Source: a virus
Lineage: Duplodnaviria > Caudoviricetes
IMG/VR virus record: IMGVR_UViG_3300008255_000376
Location: 1-29,083 of that record
Length of the DNA stretch: 29,083 bases
Reading direction: 5' to 3' (one strand)
The notes beneath the pieces were generated by a model. The model was not told the origin of the DNA. It did no database searches and was given only the letters and a program-made list of their open reading frames with translations. Of this stretch, positions 5,200 to 23,615 are shown piece after piece. How positions within the stretch are numbered: the first letter of the stretch is position 1; each line of letters starts with the position of its first letter. A program made the position numbers and the translations under genes.

Positions 5200-5874
5200 A
5201 TGGAAAAAGAAAACAAACTTTCTTCTTCCAACTCTGGAGATTTGGAGCTTGAATCTTCGGAAGGCGAAGAAAATGTTTCTGAAGCTGAAGACTTAGAAAC
5301 TTCAGAGAAGGAAGAAGAATATTACAAAAAGTTAACTGGGAGAGAAGACATTAAAGGCAAAGAGGATTTTGAGAAACACTACAAAGAATTAAGTAGTTTT
5401 GTGGGACAGAATCCAAAAGAATTGAAAGAGAAAGCAGAAGCCTTTGACCAAATGATAGAAGATGCCAATAAAATTGTGGATGAAGCGGAAGAGACAGGAG
5501 AGATACCTCCTCTGGAGAAAGAAATGCCAGAATTGGCAGAAGTTTCTTCTCTAAGAGATGAGTTCGACGATATGAAATTTCTCAAGAAAAACCCCCAAGC
5601 CGAAACTTTTATAGATGTAATAAAAGCAGTGGCTAAAGAAAAGGGGATTTCAAGAGAAGAAGCATATCAGGATAATCTTAAAGATTTGATAACTACTAAG
5701 TTGGAGGCGGATAAAACCAAAGAAGAAGAAAAGAGTAGCGTAGTTGAAAGTAAAACACGGGTAGCTCCAGGGATGACAGCAGGAGTTAACAAGTTAATTG
5801 AGGAAGTTCAAAAAACAGACTCAATAGACGCTAAACAAAAGCTGGTTGAAAAAATCCTTGAGCTATCTAAATAA
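5200..5874 (+). CDS. Capsid scaffolding protein
   Basis: Very acidic N-terminus, helical, located immediately upstream of the major capsid gene. Confidence 0.75.
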   Translation: MEKENKLSSSNSGDLELESSEGEENVSEAEDLETSEKEEEYYKKLTGREDIKGKEDFEKHYKELSSFVGQNPKELKEKAEAFDQMIEDANKIVDEAEETGEIPPLEKEMPELAEVSSLRDEFDDMKFLKKNPQAETFIDVIKAVAKEKGISREEAYQDNLKDLITTKLEADKTKEEEKSSVVESKTRVAPGMTAGVNKLIEEVQKTDSIDAKQKLVEKILELSK

Positions 5875-5878
5875 ATAA

Positions 5879-5962
5879 GTGCCAACAGGTGAATTAACTA
5901 CTTATACTGGAAAGGATGTTATTAAGAAAGATGTCCTTTCTCTTGTAGAAATCTTGACCGCT
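5879..5962 (+). CDS. Major capsid protein, exon 1 (28 codons, MPTGELTTYTGKDVIKKDVLSLVEILTA)
   Basis: GTG start 4 nt after the scaffold stop; ends in the U of GCT, which forms the P1 U-G splice-site pair; joins exon 2 in frame. Confidence 0.85.
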
Positions 5963-6564
5963 ATTGACAAAAATGTTTTCCTTGGCGGTCTAAAATCGCT
6001 TCTGATAAAGGGAACCACGGGAACCCTTACCAAGCAGCAAGTATGAACAAAAATAGGATGAAGATGTTGGCTTATGTGGCAGGTATAATAGACGGAGAAG
6101 GGCACATCGGGATAGCGAAACAAAATCATCCTAATTGTCAAACGAGAAAAAGATTAGTTGATTATAGTTTGAGAATAGCCGTAAAAATGTGCGATGGTGA
6201 TATAATAGATTATCTTTATGGAAACTTCGGAGGGCATACGGGAAGAAGGTTAGCGGAAGAACGAAAGTCAGAACAGTATTATTGGGTAATAAATTGCAAG
6301 AAAGCAGCCGAATTATTAAAACAATTATTACCCTTCTTGATAGGAAAAAAGCAACAAGCAGAATTGGCAATGAGATTTCAATTTAGAGCAGAAAGAAAAC
6401 AAGGTAAAAAAAGAAATATAGAATTTGATGAATGGGCATACCAAGAGATGAAAAGCCTACATAAAACACATAAGCCATCAAAAACATACACTCATACTTG
6501 CGGGCAGGTGCAGAGACTAAGCGAAGCGACCCCGAAAGGGGATGCGATAGTCCAAACATAAAAG
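5963..6564 (+). mobile_element. Group I self-splicing intron (602 nt) with homing endonuclease
   Basis: P1 GACCGCT 5956-62 / GGCGGTC 5984-90; P10 TTTTCCTT 5976-83 / AAGGAAAA 6565-72; P3 TCGCTTC 5996-6002 / GAAGCGA 6523-29; P4 AAGGG 6008-12 / CCCTT 6024-28; P6a GCAAGTATGA 6037-46 / TCATACTTGC 6492-6501; P7 GACTA 6515-19 / TAGTC 6548-52; P8 CCCC-GAAA-GGGG 6530-41; terminal G at 6564. Confidence 0.93.
6043..6561 (+). CDS. Intron-encoded single-motif LAGLIDADG homing endonuclease
   Basis: LAYVAGIIDGEGHI motif followed by typical FGG, YYW and LLPFLIGKKQQAEL segments; lies within the intron. Confidence 0.92.
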   Translation: MNKNRMKMLAYVAGIIDGEGHIGIAKQNHPNCQTRKRLVDYSLRIAVKMCDGDIIDYLYGNFGGHTGRRLAEERKSEQYYWVINCKKAAELLKQLLPFLIGKKQQAELAMRFQFRAERKQGKKRNIEFDEWAYQEMKSLHKTHKPSKTYTHTCGQVQRLSEATPKGDAIVQT

Positions 6565-7398
6565 AAGGAAAATTGGTTTCTGAATAATCTTGGGAAAAGT
6601 GCTGCTATTTCTACTGTTCATCAGACAATGACAGACACGCTACGCACTGCGGCAAGTGCCGCTGTAACAGAAGAAGCTGATTATACTAATCTTGAAAGAA
6701 GTGCTCCTTCATTAGTTCCTAATATTATTGAAATTATTGCTATTCCTTTTAGAGTAACCAGAACAGCATCGCAGGTTCAGTATTATCACGGACAAAATGA
6801 GTTAGCGAGACAGACAACGAAAGGTCTTATGGATTGGGGTAATGCTGTTGAATTTGATTTAGTTAGGTCAACACTTACTTCTGGAGCATCAGGAACAGCT
6901 CCAAAGATGGATGGAATAATTAGGGGTATTTCAAAATCCACTAATTATACCCTTGAGACATCTGGGACTGCGTTTTCTGCTTCAATCTTGAAAGGTTTGA
7001 TGAAAGCTAACTGGGATAACAGCAATGGAGATGTGGCGACTGATGTGTTTGTCGGGTCATTTCTGTCTGATGCGATGGATGATTTTACAAACAAATCCAA
7101 TGTGGTTGTCACTGGACTGAATGTCAGAGAATTGGTTACAGCAGTTGATGTCTTCGAGACAGGGCTTGGAAAAGTTAGAAAACACTCTCACCGATATGTC
7201 CAACAGTCAGGCGATGCTAATGCCAGAATTCTTGGTGTTAGACCAGAAAAGTTGAGACTTGCTTATTTGCAAAGACCGTTTATCGACACTGATTTAGCGA
7301 GGTCTGGTGATTATGATGCGAGAGCAGTAATCGGAAAATTGACATTGGAAATCATTAACAAAGATAGCAACTGGTTTGCAGACGGATATTTGAAGTAA
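6565..7398 (+). CDS. Major capsid protein, exon 2 (spliced product ~305 aa; resembles SU10/DUF5309-like HK97-fold capsids)
   Basis: The frame of the 6628 ORF is open back to 6562 (KENWFLNNLGKSAAISTVHQTMTD...); position after the scaffold; APKMDGI and IGKLTLEIINKDS segments fit this capsid type. Confidence 0.85.
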   Translation, partial: KENWFLNNLGKSAAISTVHQTMTDTLRTAASAAVTEEADYTNLERSAPSLVPNIIEIIAIPFRVTRTASQVQYYHGQNELARQTTKGLMDWGNAVEFDLVRSTLTSGASGTAPKMDGIIRGISKSTNYTLETSGTAFSASILKGLMKANWDNSNGDVATDVFVGSFLSDAMDDFTNKSNVVVTGLNVRELVTAVDVFETGLGKVRKHSHRYVQQSGDANARILGVRPEKLRLAYLQRPFIDTDLARSGDYDARAVIGKLTLEIINKDSNWFADGYLK

Positions 7399-7425
7399 TC
7401 TGAAACAAAATAATTGAATTCCTTG

Positions 7426-7489: not shown

Positions 7490-7795
7490 ATGGATTTAAC
7501 AAAATTACAAAGAAAACAATTGATAGAAGAAATTGTTAGAGAGTTCATTAAAAAATTTCCAGTTGATTATATGGCTATTTGCCAATCAGTAAAAATTCAG
7601 AGAAAACTGAAAAAAGATAAATGGGGTTTAACAGATAAGGATAGTGAATATATGAGATGGACTTTAAGAATTCCTGCCAGATTATTTAGGATTTTGGATA
7701 AGAAATTAATTCAGCCGAGATTTCTTGAAGAGCAATGGGAAATTGACTGGTTTAAAAAAACATTTAAAGAATTTAGGGTTTCAGAAAGAGTTTAA
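7490..7795 (+). CDS. Hypothetical protein
   Basis: ATG at 7490 (in-frame GTG at 7481); about 101 aa; basic. Confidence 0.7.
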   Translation: MDLTKLQRKQLIEEIVREFIKKFPVDYMAICQSVKIQRKLKKDKWGLTDKDSEYMRWTLRIPARLFRILDKKLIQPRFLEEQWEIDWFKKTFKEFRVSERV

Positions 7796-7799
7796 CAAT

Positions 7800-10091
7800 A
7801 TGATTAGTCTTTGCCTTATTGTAAAAGCGGACAATAAAGAAGCAAAATTATTGGATAATTGTTTGAAATCTATTTACAAATGGGTTGATGAGATTTGTAT
7901 TACAACAGAACAAAATAAAGAAATTGAGAAAGTAGCAAAAAAATATAATGCCAAAATATCTTATTTTGAATGGATAAATGATTTTGCTCAAGCCAGAAAT
8001 TTTAATTTTAGTCAAGTAAAGGGAGATTGGATTTTGTGGGCAGATAGTGATGATATAATTGAAGGTGGGCAATATCTTGGAAAAGTTTTGGAAAGAATGA
8101 AAGAAGAAGGAGCAGATATTGGAGTATTGGATTATTTATATGATTTTGATAAATGGGGGAATGTAGTAGTTCAACACAAAAAAGCCCGCATTATTAAAAA
8201 TGATGGTTGTGTCAAATGGGTAGGAAAATTACACGAGGATTTAATGCCCCAAAGAGAAGTTAAATCTTATTTCATAGAGAATATAAAAATAATCCATAAA
8301 TCACCGCTAGAAAGAAAAGAAGAAGCAAAAGAAAGAAATCTTGAAATAGCACTTTTACAATTAAAAGAAGTTCCAGATGACCCAAAATGTATTTGGGATG
8401 TGGCTAATGCTTATTCATCTTTAGGAAAACATAAAGAGGCAATTCAGTATTATTTAAAATTTATTCCTGAAACAGGTTCGGAAGAGGAGAAATTCCTTGC
8501 CTGGCATAGAATGGCAGGGGCAATGAGAGATTTGGGATTATTTAATGAAGCGATTGAATCAGAATGGGAAGCAATGAAATTAAGACCTTGGTATCCAGAT
8601 GCTTATTTGGGATTAGGAGAAATTTATTACAAAATGGGAAAACCAAAATACGCCAAAGAATTTTTGGTAACAGGAATGGCAAAACCAGTTCCTGAAGATA
8701 CGGCAATTGTCTGGAATCCCAGAGATTACGATTATAACCCTTTGAGGATTTTATCAAGAGTTTATTTTGAATTGAATCGCCCAGAAGATGCCAAAAAATG
8801 TTTGGAACAATGCTTGAGACTCTATCCTAAAAATCAGGATATTAAAAATACAATTCAGGTTTTAGATAAGGAAATCAAGAAATTACAAGAGATAGATATA
8901 ATTTATGAGAAAGTCCAAAAAGCCAAAACATTGGAAGAGATTAAAAAACTTATTGATTCAGCCCCTTTTGAATTGAAATGTCATCCTAAACTGGTTTATT
9001 TAAAAAATGTCCATTTTATTAAAGATAAATCTTCGGGAAGAGATTTGGTGATTTATTGCTATCAGACAGATGAGCCATTTGACCCAGATATTATTTTGAA
9101 AAAAGGAAGAGGCGGGTCAGAAGAAGCGGTTTATCATATTTCAAAAAGATTAGCGAATTTGGGCTGGAATGTAACGGTATATTGTAATTGTGGTTATAAA
9201 GAAAGAAAATTTGGTAAAGTTTTATGGAAACCTTGGTGGTCTTTCAACCCCAGAGATAAACAGGATATTTTAGTGGTTTGGAGACATCCAGGCATATTTG
9301 AGATAGAAGGAATTAATGCCAAGAAAAAATATGTCTGGATTCACGATATTTTAACACCGCAGGAATTTACATTAAGAAGATTAGAACAAATAAATAAGAT
9401 TATTGCTCTTTCTAAATGGCAAAGAGATTTATTTCTCAATATCCCAGATGAGAAGTTTATGATTTCGTCTAACGGGATTGAGCCGAAAATGTTTGAAAAG
9501 AAAGTTAAAAGAAATCCTTATAGATTAATTTATACCAGTTCTTACGACAGAGGGCTTGAAACTTTATTAAGATTATTTCCGCTTATTAAAAAAGAAATTC
9601 CTAAAGCTGAATTACATATATTTTACGGCTGGGAATTATGGGATAAGGTTCATTCAGAAAATCCAGAAATGCTGGCGAAAAAAGAAACAATTTTGAAGTT
9701 ATTAAACCAACCAGGAGTTTATGAACACGGCAGGATTTCTCAAGAACGAATAATCGAAGAATATCAAAAATCAAGCATACTGGCTTATCCTACTGAATTT
9801 GGAGAAATATCTTTTATTAGCGGAATGAAAGCCCAAGTAGCAGGATGTATTCCAATTACTACTACTGCTGGTTGTTTAGATGAGACAATACAATTTGGAT
9901 TAAAAGTGGATAGTAAAAATATTTATTCCAATATAGATGCTCAAAAAGAATGGGTTGAAGGAGTGATAAATGTTCTTAAAAATCCGCCTTCAGAAAAAGA
10001 AAGAGAGGAAATGAAAAATTGGGCAAGACAAAAATTTAATTGGAATAATGTTAGTCAACAATGGAACAAAGAATTCCTATCATCAAATTAG
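7800..10091 (+). CDS. GT2-TPR-GT4 multidomain glycosyltransferase
   Basis: N-terminal ISLCLIVK...DFAQARNF...WILWADSDD...WVGKLHE (GT-A fold, SunS/flagellin-GT-like); central TPR helices; C-terminal GGSEEAV...YTSSYDRGL...YPTEFGEIS (GT-B fold). Likely start is ATG 7800. Confidence 0.9.
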   Translation: MISLCLIVKADNKEAKLLDNCLKSIYKWVDEICITTEQNKEIEKVAKKYNAKISYFEWINDFAQARNFNFSQVKGDWILWADSDDIIEGGQYLGKVLERMKEEGADIGVLDYLYDFDKWGNVVVQHKKARIIKNDGCVKWVGKLHEDLMPQREVKSYFIENIKIIHKSPLERKEEAKERNLEIALLQLKEVPDDPKCIWDVANAYSSLGKHKEAIQYYLKFIPETGSEEEKFLAWHRMAGAMRDLGLFNEAIESEWEAMKLRPWYPDAYLGLGEIYYKMGKPKYAKEFLVTGMAKPVPEDTAIVWNPRDYDYNPLRILSRVYFELNRPEDAKKCLEQCLRLYPKNQDIKNTIQVLDKEIKKLQEIDIIYEKVQKAKTLEEIKKLIDSAPFELKCHPKLVYLKNVHFIKDKSSGRDLVIYCYQTDEPFDPDIILKKGRGGSEEAVYHISKRLANLGWNVTVYCNCGYKERKFGKVLWKPWWSFNPRDKQDILVVWRHPGIFEIEGINAKKKYVWIHDILTPQEFTLRRLEQINKIIALSKWQRDLFLNIPDEKFMISSNGIEPKMFEKKVKRNPYRLIYTSSYDRGLETLLRLFPLIKKEIPKAELHIFYGWELWDKVHSENPEMLAKKETILKLLNQPGVYEHGRISQERIIEEYQKSSILAYPTEFGEISFISGMKAQVAGCIPITTTAGCLDETIQFGLKVDSKNIYSNIDAQKEWVEGVINVLKNPPSEKEREEMKNWARQKFNWNNVSQQWNKEFLSSN

Positions 10092-10648
10092 CCAGATTTA
10101 CTTGGATTAGAAATCAATGTTCAAATTCTGACAAAATAATAGATATTGGAAGTAATAAGGGATATACTTTTACAGATTTTTATAGGAAAAATATAGTTTC
10201 AGTTGATATTGATTTATATGATATAGAGAATTTTGTTAAAGCCGATGCCCATAATTTACCTTTTAAAGATAAAGAATTTGATATAGCAGTTTTGGGAGAG
10301 ATTTTAGAACATGTTGAAGACCCAATTCAAGTTTTAAAAGAGGCAAAAAGGGTGGCTAACAAAATTGTGATTACTGTTCCTAATGAATATGAATGGACAG
10401 AAGAATTAAATCCTTTTATGCCAGCCGAAGAAGCAGCAAGAAGACAAGGATTAACTTTAGAAGAAATGGTAAAAAAAGATAATCCCGCCAAAGAACATTA
10501 TTCAGCTGATGGATATAAACACATATTTCACAATCGTTATTATACTTATGAAATGTTAGAAAATCATTTAAAAGAAGCTGGAATAAAAAATTATAAAATA
10601 TCAAAATTGATTCACGATAAATTTGTCTTTTGGGTAGTAATATGTTAA
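10061..10648 (+). CDS. Class I SAM-dependent methyltransferase (Methyltransf_11-like)
   Basis: IIDIGSNKG, ADAHNLPFKDKEFD, EILEHVEDP, LKEAKRV. Confidence 0.88.
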   Translation: MEQRIPIIKLARFTWIRNQCSNSDKIIDIGSNKGYTFTDFYRKNIVSVDIDLYDIENFVKADAHNLPFKDKEFDIAVLGEILEHVEDPIQVLKEAKRVANKIVITVPNEYEWTEELNPFMPAEEAARRQGLTLEEMVKKDNPAKEHYSADGYKHIFHNRYYTYEMLENHLKEAGIKNYKISKLIHDKFVFWVVIC

Positions 10649-11595
10649 TCAAGTTAGCATTTGTCTGGGACTGGGCAAATACTATTCCCCAATTAACAAA
10701 TTGGAAAGATGGATTGGCTGCTGCTTTAAAAATTTTATCAAATGAATGGGAAATCAAGGTTTATAGTATAGGACAGGATATGGTTTTTCCTGCTCCTTAT
10801 ATGCCGATTATTTTGAAATCCTCACCAGAATTATTAGCAAAAGAAATCCTTGATTTTAAGCCTGATGCAATATTGTTCTTTGCTGATTTTACCAGACCAA
10901 CTATCCCTCATTTAGCTGGGAAAGGAATACCAATGGCTTTATGTTTAGCTGGCGGAACCTTTAGAAATTATGTTGATGCTTTTGATTTGATTTTTGTAGA
11001 ATCAGAGGTCTATAAAAATCAGCTTGAAAGCGAAGGAAAAAATGTTATCAAAGCATTTGGGACGAATACAGAACTTTTTAAACCGATAAAACAACCGAAA
11101 ATCTGGGATGCTATTTTTCCTGCTACTTTTGCTCGTTGGAAAAGACATTATCTATTCGCTGGGGCAACAGGAAATACAGGGTTAGCAGTTGGTTGGATAT
11201 ATCAAGGTCACGAAACAGAATGTTGGCAGGTTTGCCAAGAAAAAGGAACAATGGTTTTGCCCTATGTAGATGCTGAAACTTTGAATTATCTTTATAATGC
11301 TTCCAGAACTTGCGTGATAACTTCTGATAAAACTGGTGGAAGTCAAAGAACGGTCTTGGAAACAATGGCAACTAACATACCAGTAATTGTTATGGCAGAT
11401 AGTGATAAAACTACAGAATATGTAAAAGAATGCGGAATAGGAGAAATAGTAGAACCAAGTGTAGAAGCAATCCAAAAAGCAGTAGAAAAATGGAAAAACA
11501 AACAAGTCAATACGAGAGAGTGGGTGATAAAGAATTATTCAGCAGAAATTTACGCCAAAAAGTTGAAGGAAGGAATCTTGAGTATATGCCCTTAA
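10642..11595 (+). CDS. GT4-family (GT-B) glycosyltransferase
   Basis: GTNTELFKP, WKRH, LNYLYNASRTCVITS...GSQRTVLETMATNIPVIV. Likely start is ATG 10642. Confidence 0.85.
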   Translation: MLIKLAFVWDWANTIPQLTNWKDGLAAALKILSNEWEIKVYSIGQDMVFPAPYMPIILKSSPELLAKEILDFKPDAILFFADFTRPTIPHLAGKGIPMALCLAGGTFRNYVDAFDLIFVESEVYKNQLESEGKNVIKAFGTNTELFKPIKQPKIWDAIFPATFARWKRHYLFAGATGNTGLAVGWIYQGHETECWQVCQEKGTMVLPYVDAETLNYLYNASRTCVITSDKTGGSQRTVLETMATNIPVIVMADSDKTTEYVKECGIGEIVEPSVEAIQKAVEKWKNKQVNTREWVIKNYSAEIYAKKLKEGILSICP

Positions 11596-12227
11596 TTTCA
11601 ATTCTTACGCCAACGATTCGTCCAAAAGGATTAGAAATTGTCCAGAAATGTCTTGCTGAACAAACTTATCAAGGCTTTGAATGGTTAGTAGAAGTAGGGA
11701 TACCCGAAAAAGGAAATGATTTATGTAAAGCCATTAACCGAATGTTAAAAAGAGCAAAGGGAAAATGGATAGTAATGCTACAAGATTATATCAAGATTTT
11801 GCCTGATGGATTAGAAAGATTTTTAAAAGTAGCAGATGAAAAAAAGTTTATTACTGGCTCAATGGGGATTACCGAAGATTGGAAAGATATTAAATGGGAC
11901 TGGCGGGCTTTTAGAAAGTTTGAGCCAATTCAATATCACGAATGCGAGGCAGATTGGATGATAGCACCTAAGAAAGCATTTTTTGAGCTTGGCGGATATG
12001 ATGAGGAATACGATAATTACTGGGGAATGGAAAATGTTAATATAGCTTTTCGGGCAGAAAAATTAGGATATACTTTTTGGGTTTTGTCTGACAATAAAGC
12101 TATTCAATGGGCTCACGATAAATTTATAAAACATCCTTTTCGTGCTCGTTGGAACCCCCTATTTCATCAAGATAAAATAAGACAAATTGATATGGGCGAA
12201 AGTCCAATCAAATTAAATTATCTATGA
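11586..12227 (+). CDS. GT2-family (GT-A) glycosyltransferase
   Basis: ISILTPTIRP...QTYQGFEWLV...AKGKWIVMLQD...GGYDEEY...WGMENVNIAFR. Likely start is ATG 11586. Confidence 0.85.
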   Translation: MPLISILTPTIRPKGLEIVQKCLAEQTYQGFEWLVEVGIPEKGNDLCKAINRMLKRAKGKWIVMLQDYIKILPDGLERFLKVADEKKFITGSMGITEDWKDIKWDWRAFRKFEPIQYHECEADWMIAPKKAFFELGGYDEEYDNYWGMENVNIAFRAEKLGYTFWVLSDNKAIQWAHDKFIKHPFRARWNPLFHQDKIRQIDMGESPIKLNYL

Positions 12228-23303: not shown

Positions 23304-23615
23304 ATGGAAAACATAAATTACACACAGCGAAATCGTAAAGGAGAAAATAGTCCGAATTGGAAAGGTGGGATTACTTTAGATAAAAATGAATGGATGAGAA
23401 ATTGGCGAAAGAAAAATCCTGAAAAGGAAAAACAATATAAACTTAAACACTATTCAAATTATGGAAGTTATTGGCACATAGACCATATCAAACCGAAAAG
23501 TTTATTTAAATATATATCACCAGAAGACCCCGAATTTCAAGAGTGTTGGGATTTAAACAATCTTCAACCATTAGAAAAAATATCTAATCTAAAAAAGGGA
23601 AGCAATTATGTTTGA
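23304..23615 (+). CDS. Short NUMOD-like/HNH endonuclease, possibly internally deleted
   Basis: GENSPNWKGG motif and WHIDHIKP...NLQPL...NLKKG HNH core in only 103 aa. Confidence 0.7.
   Translation: MENINYTQRNRKGENSPNWKGGITLDKNEWMRNWRKKNPEKEKQYKLKHYSNYGSYWHIDHIKPKSLFKYISPEDPEFQECWDLNNLQPLEKISNLKKGSNYV

What the first reader, a model, noticed from the sequence alone, without database searches (positions are those of the whole stretch)
5879..6561. Homing endonuclease translation coupled to unspliced capsid mRNA and overlapping the ribozyme core
Seen: capsid exon 1 stays open 27 codons into the intron and stops at TGA 6044-46, overlapping the endonuclease ATG 6043-45 (ATGA). That ATG is buried in the 10-bp P6a stem. 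The endonuclease ORF reads through P7, P3 and P8 and stops 3 nt before the terminal G, in the same frame as exon 2. Inference: ribosomes on unspliced RNA unfold the intron and reinitiate on the endonuclease, while folded RNA hides the start. This would be a splice-versus-translate switch, and a feedback loop if the protein is a maturase.
Basis: partly seen in the sequence, partly recalled or inferred. Interest (0 to 1): 0.7.

Follow-up and report, generated by a model that had tools for sequence, protein, structure and literature searches.

The report
Capsid intron with coupled homing endonuclease
The capsid gene of a groundwater phage is split by an unusually small intron of the self-splicing (group I) type, whose DNA-cutting enzyme starts where ribosomes entering the unspliced message would stop, so the enzyme is likely made only from messages that have not spliced: a modest twist on a well-known selfish element, with no evidence for the proposed feedback loop.

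Summary
A 602-nt group I intron (5963-6564) splits an SU10-type capsid gene; all 56 related capsid loci are uninterrupted at this site. The exon-1 frame runs 27 codons into the intron and stops on the endonuclease ATG (ATGA), which lies in a 10-bp helix.

The ORF running through the core is the family norm (27 of 27 introns) and is published for T4 ('core creep'). The stop near the terminal G and the shared frame with exon 2 appear not to be conserved.

Coupling is plausible but only modestly supported. The exon-frame stop lies within 11 nt of the endonuclease start at 4 of 16 insertion sites (1.2 expected, P=0.025; without this window 3 of 15, P=0.08). One related intron repeats the ATGA overlap and a 10-bp helix with different sequence. 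Ten sites with their own promoter or SD are never coupled. Nothing supports a maturase.

This scan noted P9-less phage introns before, on other DNA. Verdict: new variant of a known kind.

The parts
5879..5962 (+). Capsid exon 1 (28 codons, GTG start, no SD)
   Evidence: aligns with the N-termini of intron-less capsid relatives
5963..6564 (+). Group I intron, 602 nt; about 157 nt without the 445-nt L6 insertion; no P2, minimal P5, no P9
   Evidence: not matched by Rfam
5956..5990 (+). P1 (5956-62 with 5984-90), U5962-G5984 wobble at the 5' splice site; guide 5975-83 forms a 9-bp P10 with exon 2 6565-73
5963..6046 (+). Exon-1 frame read-through, 27 codons plus TGA 6044-46, giving a 55-aa product on unspliced RNA
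   Evidence: the peptide has no homologue but itself
5996..6035 (+). 5' half of the core: P3 5' strand 5996-6002, P4 6008-12/6024-28, 2-bp P5, P6 6030-31, short stem 6034-35
   Evidence: 7-bp P3 with compensatory changes in L016a, L196, L197b and L278a
6037..6046 (+). 5' strand of the 10-bp distal P6 helix holding the endonuclease ATG (6043-45) and the exon-frame stop
6043..6561 (+). Single-motif LAGLIDADG homing endonuclease ORF, 172 aa, I-CreI-like; the last 23 codons or so are dictated by ribozyme structure
   Evidence: Pfam LAGLIDADG_1 E 7.9e-5, above cut-off; family profile matches I-CreI, I-MsoI and I-CvuI chains
6492..6501 (+). 3' strand of the 10-bp helix
6504..6553 (+). 3' half of the core: P6 strands, J6/7, P7 6513-19/6548-53 with guanosine site, P3' 6523-29, P8 hairpin from 6530, J8/7
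6554..6564 (+). 11-nt unstructured tail from P7' to the terminal G, in place of P9
6565..7398 (+). Capsid exon 2 (277 codons), SU10 major capsid family
   Evidence: Pfam PF17236 E 6.9e-43

Best explanation
This is a compact group I intron in a phage major capsid gene, predicted to self-splice and to spread by homing, and its LAGLIDADG endonuclease is likely made by ribosomes that run from capsid exon 1 into unspliced RNA, stop at the ATGA overlap and would restart there. Shown from sequence: the splice boundaries, the helices, the overlap and the endonuclease family. Inferred: each transcript is partitioned kinetically. Most fold and splice between ribosome passages and give capsid mRNA. A minority are entered by a ribosome that melts P1-P6, terminates at 6044-46 and sometimes reinitiates; the endonuclease ribosome then passes through P7-P3-P8 and delays splicing of that molecule further. 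Once the intron is folded or excised, the ATG is paired and has no upstream ribosome supply, so expression would be low and tied to late capsid transcription. The endonuclease would cut intron-less capsid alleles of co-occurring relatives. This is a promoter-free, self-limiting expression route, not a signal-responsive switch, and no maturase loop is needed.
For: Geometry. Recurrence: at 4 of 16 insertion sites the exon-frame stop lies within 11 nt of the endonuclease ATG, against 1.24 expected (P=0.025). L278b, at a different site in a different capsid gene, also reads 27 codons to an ATGA overlap with the ATG in a 10-bp helix of different sequence. Three diverged orthologues (L016a, L196, L197b) keep the exon frame open for 24-29 codons, stopping at +11, -4 and +11. 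None of 10 sites with a promoter-like or SD-like signal is coupled (Fisher P=0.008, or 0.063 if L156 is counted as having an SD; post hoc). No promoter-like site feeds the ORF from inside this intron. P0002 and P0003 keep the start equivalent to 6043 and lack the two internal Met codons. An intron-less relative (81% capsid identity, 19 of 24 bases of the site) occurs in the same groundwater runs. Stop-start overlap as a low-output route is described for T4 mobE (PMC2988022, passage).
Against: Without the discovery case the excess is 3 of 15 sites (P=0.077); with a 21-nt window it is P=0.08 with the window and 0.19 without. Sites A, B, C and G share a homologous 5' half, so they are not independent, and most stop codons of that half fall in one frame. 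L278a has the same compact architecture, no promoter or SD, and is not coupled (stop at -57). Lack of an SD is uninformative because 11 of 12 other phage starts also score weaker than -4 kcal/mol. Met 6064 lies outside the helix, has a weak SD (-4.0), and P0004 is called from that position. Ribosome entry into the core is reported to impair splicing, and most group I introns stop ribosomes right after the 5' splice site (PMC3073962, passage), a cost in a highly expressed capsid gene. The target site shows no palindrome above shuffled controls, which is unexpected for a homodimeric enzyme.
Confidence: 0.55

Rival explanations
1. The overlap is a by-product. The endonuclease inserted at the tip of P6, ATG followed by A always creates a TGA, and the exon phase happens to be one of the open frames. 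The enzyme is initiated independently, either SD-free at 6043 on nascent RNA before the helix forms or at Met 6064.
For: Single-case chance is 6-18%. Two of three frames are nearly stop-free across the conserved core. Non-exon frames also reach the ATG region (L278a +11; frames fused with the ORF in L196, L197b and L278b). The ATG is only partly paired until base 6501 is made. The phage initiates most genes without an SD. 12 of 16 sites are not coupled.
Against: Where exactly one frame ends near the ATG, it is the exon frame at 4 of 5 sites. Coupled layouts and promoter/SD signals are mutually exclusive in this sample. Stops right after the 5' splice site are said to be the rule, so a retained open frame needs a reason.
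Confidence: 0.3
2. One reading: a selected splice-versus-translate switch in which the endonuclease also acts as a maturase for this P2- and P9-less ribozyme, so that unspliced RNA makes the protein that promotes its own splicing.
For: The ribozyme lacks P2 and P9 and has a minimal P5, so it might need a protein; the same was suggested for another P9-less intron (PMC3873408, passage). The geometry would give the right sign of feedback. LAGLIDADG proteins can be maturases (PMC11270868, passage).
Against: No direct evidence. The other coupled introns (L016a, L196, L197b, L278b, L156) have a P9 hairpin, so coupling does not track loss of P9. Characterised group I maturases are mostly two-motif proteins (recalled), and this is a one-motif I-CreI type. 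A 9-bp P10 can define the 3' splice site by itself (PMC11417360, passage on P9.0/P10 redundancy).
Confidence: 0.12
3. The intron is a damaged ribozyme (P9 lost) that splices poorly, and the phage is defective or decaying.
For: P9 has been called essential. This is the only P9-less core among 59.
Against: All core helices, P1 and P10 are intact and both ORFs are whole. Copies differing at 0 and 1 of 750 bases occur on two further viral contigs and near-identical pieces in several runs. A 78%-identical homologue appears to share the short tail. The capsid is essential, so the intron must be removed.
Confidence: 0.03

Closest known systems
T4 td intron with I-TevI (Edgell et al. 2010 PMC2988022; Edgell et al. 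2011 PMC3073962; passages read)
   Same: Phage group I intron with the endonuclease ORF in the P6 loop; the ORF 3' end overlaps P6a and P7 ('core creep'); the initiation region is sequestered by RNA structure; translation into the core conflicts with splicing.
   Different: I-TevI is a GIY-YIG enzyme (recalled) expressed from its own late promoter with a local RBS hairpin. Here there is no internal promoter, the start codon lies in a long-range ribozyme helix, the exon frame is not stopped at the splice site, and the ORF crosses the whole core.
T4 nrdA/mobE stop-start overlap (PMC2988022, passage)
   Same: Endonuclease start overlapping an upstream stop codon, proposed to give low expression by translational coupling.
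   Different: mobE is free-standing, not inside an intron, so coupling does not compete with splicing.
Capsid-gene group I introns of mycobacteriophage LittleE (PMC3706429) and Delta crAss-like phages (PMC7886860); passages read
   Same: Group I-type intron in a major capsid gene; the LittleE intron encodes an I-CreI-related protein and its splicing was shown.
   Different: The LittleE ORF is on the opposite strand, so it cannot be coupled; different capsid family.
Organellar intron ORFs translated as fusions with the upstream exon (PMC3073962, passage)
   Same: The intron protein is made from unspliced RNA using upstream-exon ribosomes, allowing cross-talk between translation and splicing.
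   Different: Those are in-frame fusions needing proteolysis; here the frames differ and reinitiation is required.
Single-motif LAGLIDADG endonucleases I-CreI, I-MsoI, I-CvuI and I-ShaI of CPR rRNA introns (PMC11270868, passages)
   Same: One LAGLIDADG motif, about 170-180 aa, encoded in a compact intron of 600-700 nt.
   Different: Those sit in rRNA genes, where exon translation does not exist. No palindromic target was found here, and the position matching I-CreI Gln47 (numbering recalled) is Met.

Membership tests
Group I intron | [quoted passage not shown] | tested here: met
   U5962-G5984 in a 7-bp helix
Group I intron | Terminal G, and P10 with the 3' exon | tested here: met
   G6564; 9-bp P10; blind search ranks these sites first
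Group I intron | Core P3-P4-P6-P7-P8 with guanosine site | tested here: met
   compensatory P3 strands in four relatives
Group I intron | Removal restores the host gene seen in intron-less alleles | tested here: met
   56 of 56 other capsid loci are continuous at this site (54 by pattern, 2 by eye); 602-base difference in contigs
Group I intron | P9 hairpin between P7 and the terminal G (near-universal element) | tested here: not met
   11 unpaired bases only. 57 of 59 cores have the hairpin within 36 nt; the other exception, L011, has a P9 with a large ORF loop. P2 is also absent. I treat P9 as a peripheral element, so the intron is filed as a reduced variant.
Group I intron | Match to an Rfam group I model | tested here: not met
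   No hit at gathering score or at E<=5; the 445-nt insertion and the missing helices would defeat the model
Group I intron | Guanosine-dependent self-splicing | not testable with these tools
   No RNA holder listed; needs an in vitro assay
LAGLIDADG homing endonuclease | LAGLIDADG helix with acidic catalytic residue and I-CreI-like domain | tested here: met
   Pfam PF00961 above cut-off; motif acidic residues and K102 invariant in 20 homologues; PDB sequence matches
LAGLIDADG homing endonuclease | Pseudo-palindromic target at the insertion site | tested here: not met
   Best 6 of 9, no better than shuffles
LAGLIDADG homing endonuclease | Cleaves the intron-less allele | not testable with these tools
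   Candidate targets exist
Translationally coupled gene pair | Stop overlapping or within a few codons of the downstream start | tested here: met
   ATGA at 6043-46
Translationally coupled gene pair | Overlap conserved beyond chance | tested here: inconclusive
   4 of 16 sites, P=0.025; 3 of 15 without the window, P=0.077; no DNA of a diverged same-site orthologue could be fetched
Translationally coupled gene pair | Downstream expression depends on upstream translation | not testable with these tools
   Needs reporters or ribosome profiling
Group I intron maturase | Protein binds the intron RNA and promotes its splicing | not testable with these tools
   No supporting sign found; coupling does not track P9 loss

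The most novel reading that the evidence does not exclude
A lineage of compact phage group I introns has abandoned the usual stop codon after the 5' splice site and uses the ribozyme itself as an attenuator: ribosome entry versus folding sets the ratio of capsid to homing endonuclease. In this member a ribozyme of about 157 nt without P2 and P9 splices alone or with its own endonuclease as maturase, closing a negative feedback loop.
Probability: 0.2. Interest if true: 0.7.

Novelty: new variant of a known kind. Interest (0 to 1): 0.42.

Why it matters
Bacterial intron endonucleases are described as having their own promoters and RBS hairpins, with ribosomes kept out of the core. If termination-reinitiation from the host exon feeds this enzyme, it is a second, promoter-free solution, and it makes the splicing-versus-translation conflict testable in one small construct. 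Separately, a natural group I ribozyme of about 157 nt without P2 and P9 is smaller than the roughly 200-nt Azoarcus intron usually cited as smallest (recalled, not checked here), and would be useful for minimal-ribozyme studies and RNA circularisation if it self-splices. Most other features (capsid-gene intron, ORF through the core, LAGLIDADG) are already known.

Tried and rejected
Rfam gave no group I hit. The whole-intron fold is not more stable than shuffles (z -1.0), so the structure rests on helix-level and comparative evidence.

No RNA holder was listed among 24 runs; this says nothing about expression. The AlphaFold job never returned (ticket polled through), so there is no fold comparison.

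DNA of a diverged same-site orthologue could not be obtained: viral scans with the endonuclease, P0003 and a 5'-half pattern found only copies of this phage or nothing. The exon-1 read-through peptide has no homologue.

An internal sigma-70 promoter was rejected: a perfect -35 hexamer at 5964 is 21 nt from the nearest -10-like hexamer (sequence), and the scan found 6 sites against 6.4 by chance. A special meaning of 'same frame as exon 2, stop 3 nt before the terminal G' was rejected: P0002 appears to run past the terminal G in another frame, and stop positions vary widely in relatives. Absence of an SD was rejected as evidence. A palindromic target was not found.

Rows left out before the 27-intron count: three false core calls (L027, L209 and a wrong site in L038, whose true intron resembles L026), introns with antisense ORFs, ORF-less introns and introns with the ORF outside the P5-P6 region (L011, L123, L150). 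The exon phase of L170a was wrong and corrected; its class did not change.

Nine literature searches showed no listing that describes exon-coupled reinitiation of an intron endonuclease in a phage or a P9-less phage intron. The library is open-access only, I read passages of eight papers, and I read no supplements.

Full report
Context. The window is a 29-kb linear virus record. Pfam finds a terminase large subunit, weak SU10-type portal and adaptor matches, and an SU10 major capsid domain in 6565-7395 (E 6.9e-43). Cultured phages match the capsid only at 25-28% identity. The runs that hold the stretch are groundwater or aquifer DNA. The host is unknown.

The observation. Exon 1 is 5879-5962. 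Its frame continues 27 codons and ends at TGA 6044-46, overlapping ATG 6043-45. The ATG lies in a 10-bp helix, 6037-46 with 6492-6501. The 172-codon ORF crosses P7, P3', P8 and P7' and stops at 6559-61; the terminal G is 6564; exon 2 is in the ORF's frame.

The intron is real at the DNA level. P1 has the U-G pair and P10 has 9 pairs. A blind search over splice-site pairs ranks the same boundaries first, 36 against 20. All 56 other capsid loci fetched are continuous at this site. Contigs of an intron-less relative in 3 of 4 runs differ from the window by exactly 602 bases across the site. That relative, about 81% identical in the capsid (L096-L098), occurs in the same samples and is a candidate homing target, with 19 of 24 bases of the site shared. 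Rfam does not detect the intron. Splicing itself is not shown: no RNA holder was listed.

The protein. It is a single-motif LAGLIDADG protein (Pfam E 7.9e-5, above cut-off). A profile of 20 homologues matches I-CreI, I-MsoI and I-CvuI chains. The motif's acidic residues and K102 are invariant; the position matching I-CreI Gln47 (numbering recalled) is Met in the five closest sequences. The site is not palindromic beyond chance, so activity on it is inferred, not shown.

Overlap with the core is ordinary. I assembled 27 introns, the window included, with a sense-strand LAGLIDADG ORF upstream of P7. Splice sites came from the blind search for 13 and were set by hand for 14. In 27 of 27 the ORF reaches P7, and in 20 of 27 it reaches the end of P7' or beyond. 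This is the published 'core creep', described for T4 td/I-TevI, also a P6 insertion (PMC3073962 and PMC2988022, passages). The closest homologue, P0002 (78% identical), continues with residues that match an alternative frame of the window's exon 2. I infer that it sits at the same site and reads past the terminal G, so the 3' stop and the shared frame are not conserved.

Is the 5' overlap selected? For this intron alone, shuffling gives the exact overlap in 5.8% of trials and a stop within 11 nt in 18%. The 27 introns occupy 16 insertion sites, grouped by eye. The exon-frame stop is within 11 nt of the ORF start at 4 sites: the window (+1); L016a, L196 and L197b (+11, -4, +11); L278b (+1); and L156 (+10, where the ATG seems to lie in the P5 region and a strong SD-like sequence lies further downstream, so it is ambiguous). 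Expected is 1.24 (P=0.025). Without the window it is 3 of 15 (P=0.077), without L156 as well P=0.29, and with a 21-nt window P=0.08. L278b is the best parallel: another capsid gene, another site, 27 codons, ATGA, and a 10-bp helix of different sequence around the ATG.

The other sites mostly use another route. Ten sites have a promoter-like or SD-like signal in the intron and none is coupled (Fisher P=0.008, or 0.063 counting L156 as having an SD; thresholds chosen after seeing the data and confounded with length). At least six further introns carry the LAGLIDADG ORF on the opposite strand, as the LittleE capsid intron does (PMC3706429, passage). Coupling is therefore one option within the family, not a requirement.

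Evidence against reading too much into it. The coupled introns A, B and C share a homologous 5' half, and most of its stop codons fall in one frame, so reaching the ATG is easy. L278a has the same compact layout, no own signal, and is not coupled. The phage starts most genes without an SD (11 of 12 other starts weaker than -4 kcal/mol), so the missing SD proves nothing; on the other hand 17 of 28 adjacent ORF pairs have stop and start within 14 nt (using the nearest ATG, which inflates the count), so coupling is the phage's habit. The helix is long-range: the ATG is only partly paired until base 6501 is made and fully paired afterwards. Met 6064 lies outside the helix with a weak SD and is the called start of P0004, although P0002 and P0003 keep the 6043 start and lack both internal Met codons.

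Mechanism. Most group I introns are said to stop ribosomes right after the 5' splice site, exon translation helps folding, and ribosome entry into the core impairs splicing (PMC3073962, passage; the primary nrdB and td papers seen only as titles in a reference list). Here a ribosome that crosses the splice site must melt the whole 5' half and terminates on the ATG. The most likely outcome, inferred, is a kinetic partition: most transcripts splice and give capsid; a minority yield a 55-aa dead-end peptide and, by reinitiation, a little endonuclease at the late stage. I put this at 0.55, an incidental overlap with independent initiation at 0.3, a selected switch with maturase feedback at 0.12, and a crippled intron at 0.03.

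The ribozyme has no P2, a 2-bp P5 and no P9: 11 unpaired bases join P7' to the terminal G, and the intron without its 445-nt loop is about 157 nt. Of 59 distinct cores found in the fetched loci, 57 have a hairpin within 36 nt of P7'; L011 has a P9 that holds an ORF; only this one has none. P0002 probably shares the short tail (inferred from protein). One paper calls a P9-less intron very unusual and suggests outside factors (PMC3873408, passage); another notes that P9.0 and P10 are redundant for the second step (PMC11417360, passage), which fits the strong P10 here. This is the only indirect argument for a maturase, and it is weak because the other coupled introns keep P9. Six earlier notes of this scan report P9-less phage introns in other genomes; I did not check them, but they lower the uniqueness of this trait.

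Comparison and verdict. It works like a T4-type mobile intron and passes the group I core tests, failing only the peripheral P9 test and Rfam. Capsid-gene introns are known (PMC3706429; PMC7886860, passage). Nine open-access searches listed no paper on exon-coupled reinitiation of a phage intron endonuclease or on a P9-less phage intron; subscription papers and supplements were not seen. New variant of a known kind; interest 0.42.

Noticed in passing
window 6554-6564 and 5991-5995: The intron lacks P9 and P2 and has a 2-bp P5; ribozyme about 157 nt without the ORF loop; the only P9-less core of 59 examined.
   Followed up: yes
L011 1930-3000, L123 1640-2450, L129 2200-2460, L149 1490-2500, L150 1900-2500 (approximate): Five related SU10-type capsid genes carry intron-like insertions at other positions, with or without ORFs (L011: LAGLIDADG in the P9 loop behind a consensus promoter). 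This capsid family is an intron hotspot.
   Followed up: partly
L152-L193 (many), L029, L036, L063, L088, L245, L259: A large set of capsid-gene group I introns in another phage group has a long ORF-like insertion read on the opposite strand (LAGLIDADG confirmed in the last six), often with the sense frame also open into exon 2.
   Followed up: partly
L053, L016, L197, L278, L170, L171: Several loci carry two to four group I introns in tandem; in L278 two endonuclease introns are separated by a micro-exon of about 20 nt.
   Followed up: partly
L015, L195, L074, L026, L068, L066, L170, L215, L294: Consensus sigma-70 promoters are built into the P6 region of these introns just upstream of the endonuclease, some apparently giving near-leaderless messages.
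   Followed up: partly
window 5964-5996: A perfect -35 hexamer in the P1 loop lies 21 nt from a -10-like hexamer; too long a spacer for an ordinary promoter, possibly a relic or chance.
   Followed up: partly
window 23304-23615: A 103-aa ORF with an HNH-like C-terminal motif by eye; no Pfam match at E 0.01; possibly a truncated free-standing nuclease upstream of the lysis-like genes.
   Followed up: no
window 7725-12227: A block of glycosyltransferase, TPR and methyltransferase-like genes sits directly after the capsid gene, inside the structural operon (only 7725-10088 was scanned with Pfam).
   Followed up: no
window gene starts (e.g. 2548, 5200, 12224, 13185, 14336): Most gene starts lack a Shine-Dalgarno sequence and have A/T-rich leaders, hinting at a host that initiates without SD pairing.
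   Followed up: partly
runs X4, X7-X10 on window 5500-7400: An intron-less relative co-occurs with this phage, at higher contig depth in some runs; a natural target population for homing.
   Followed up: partly
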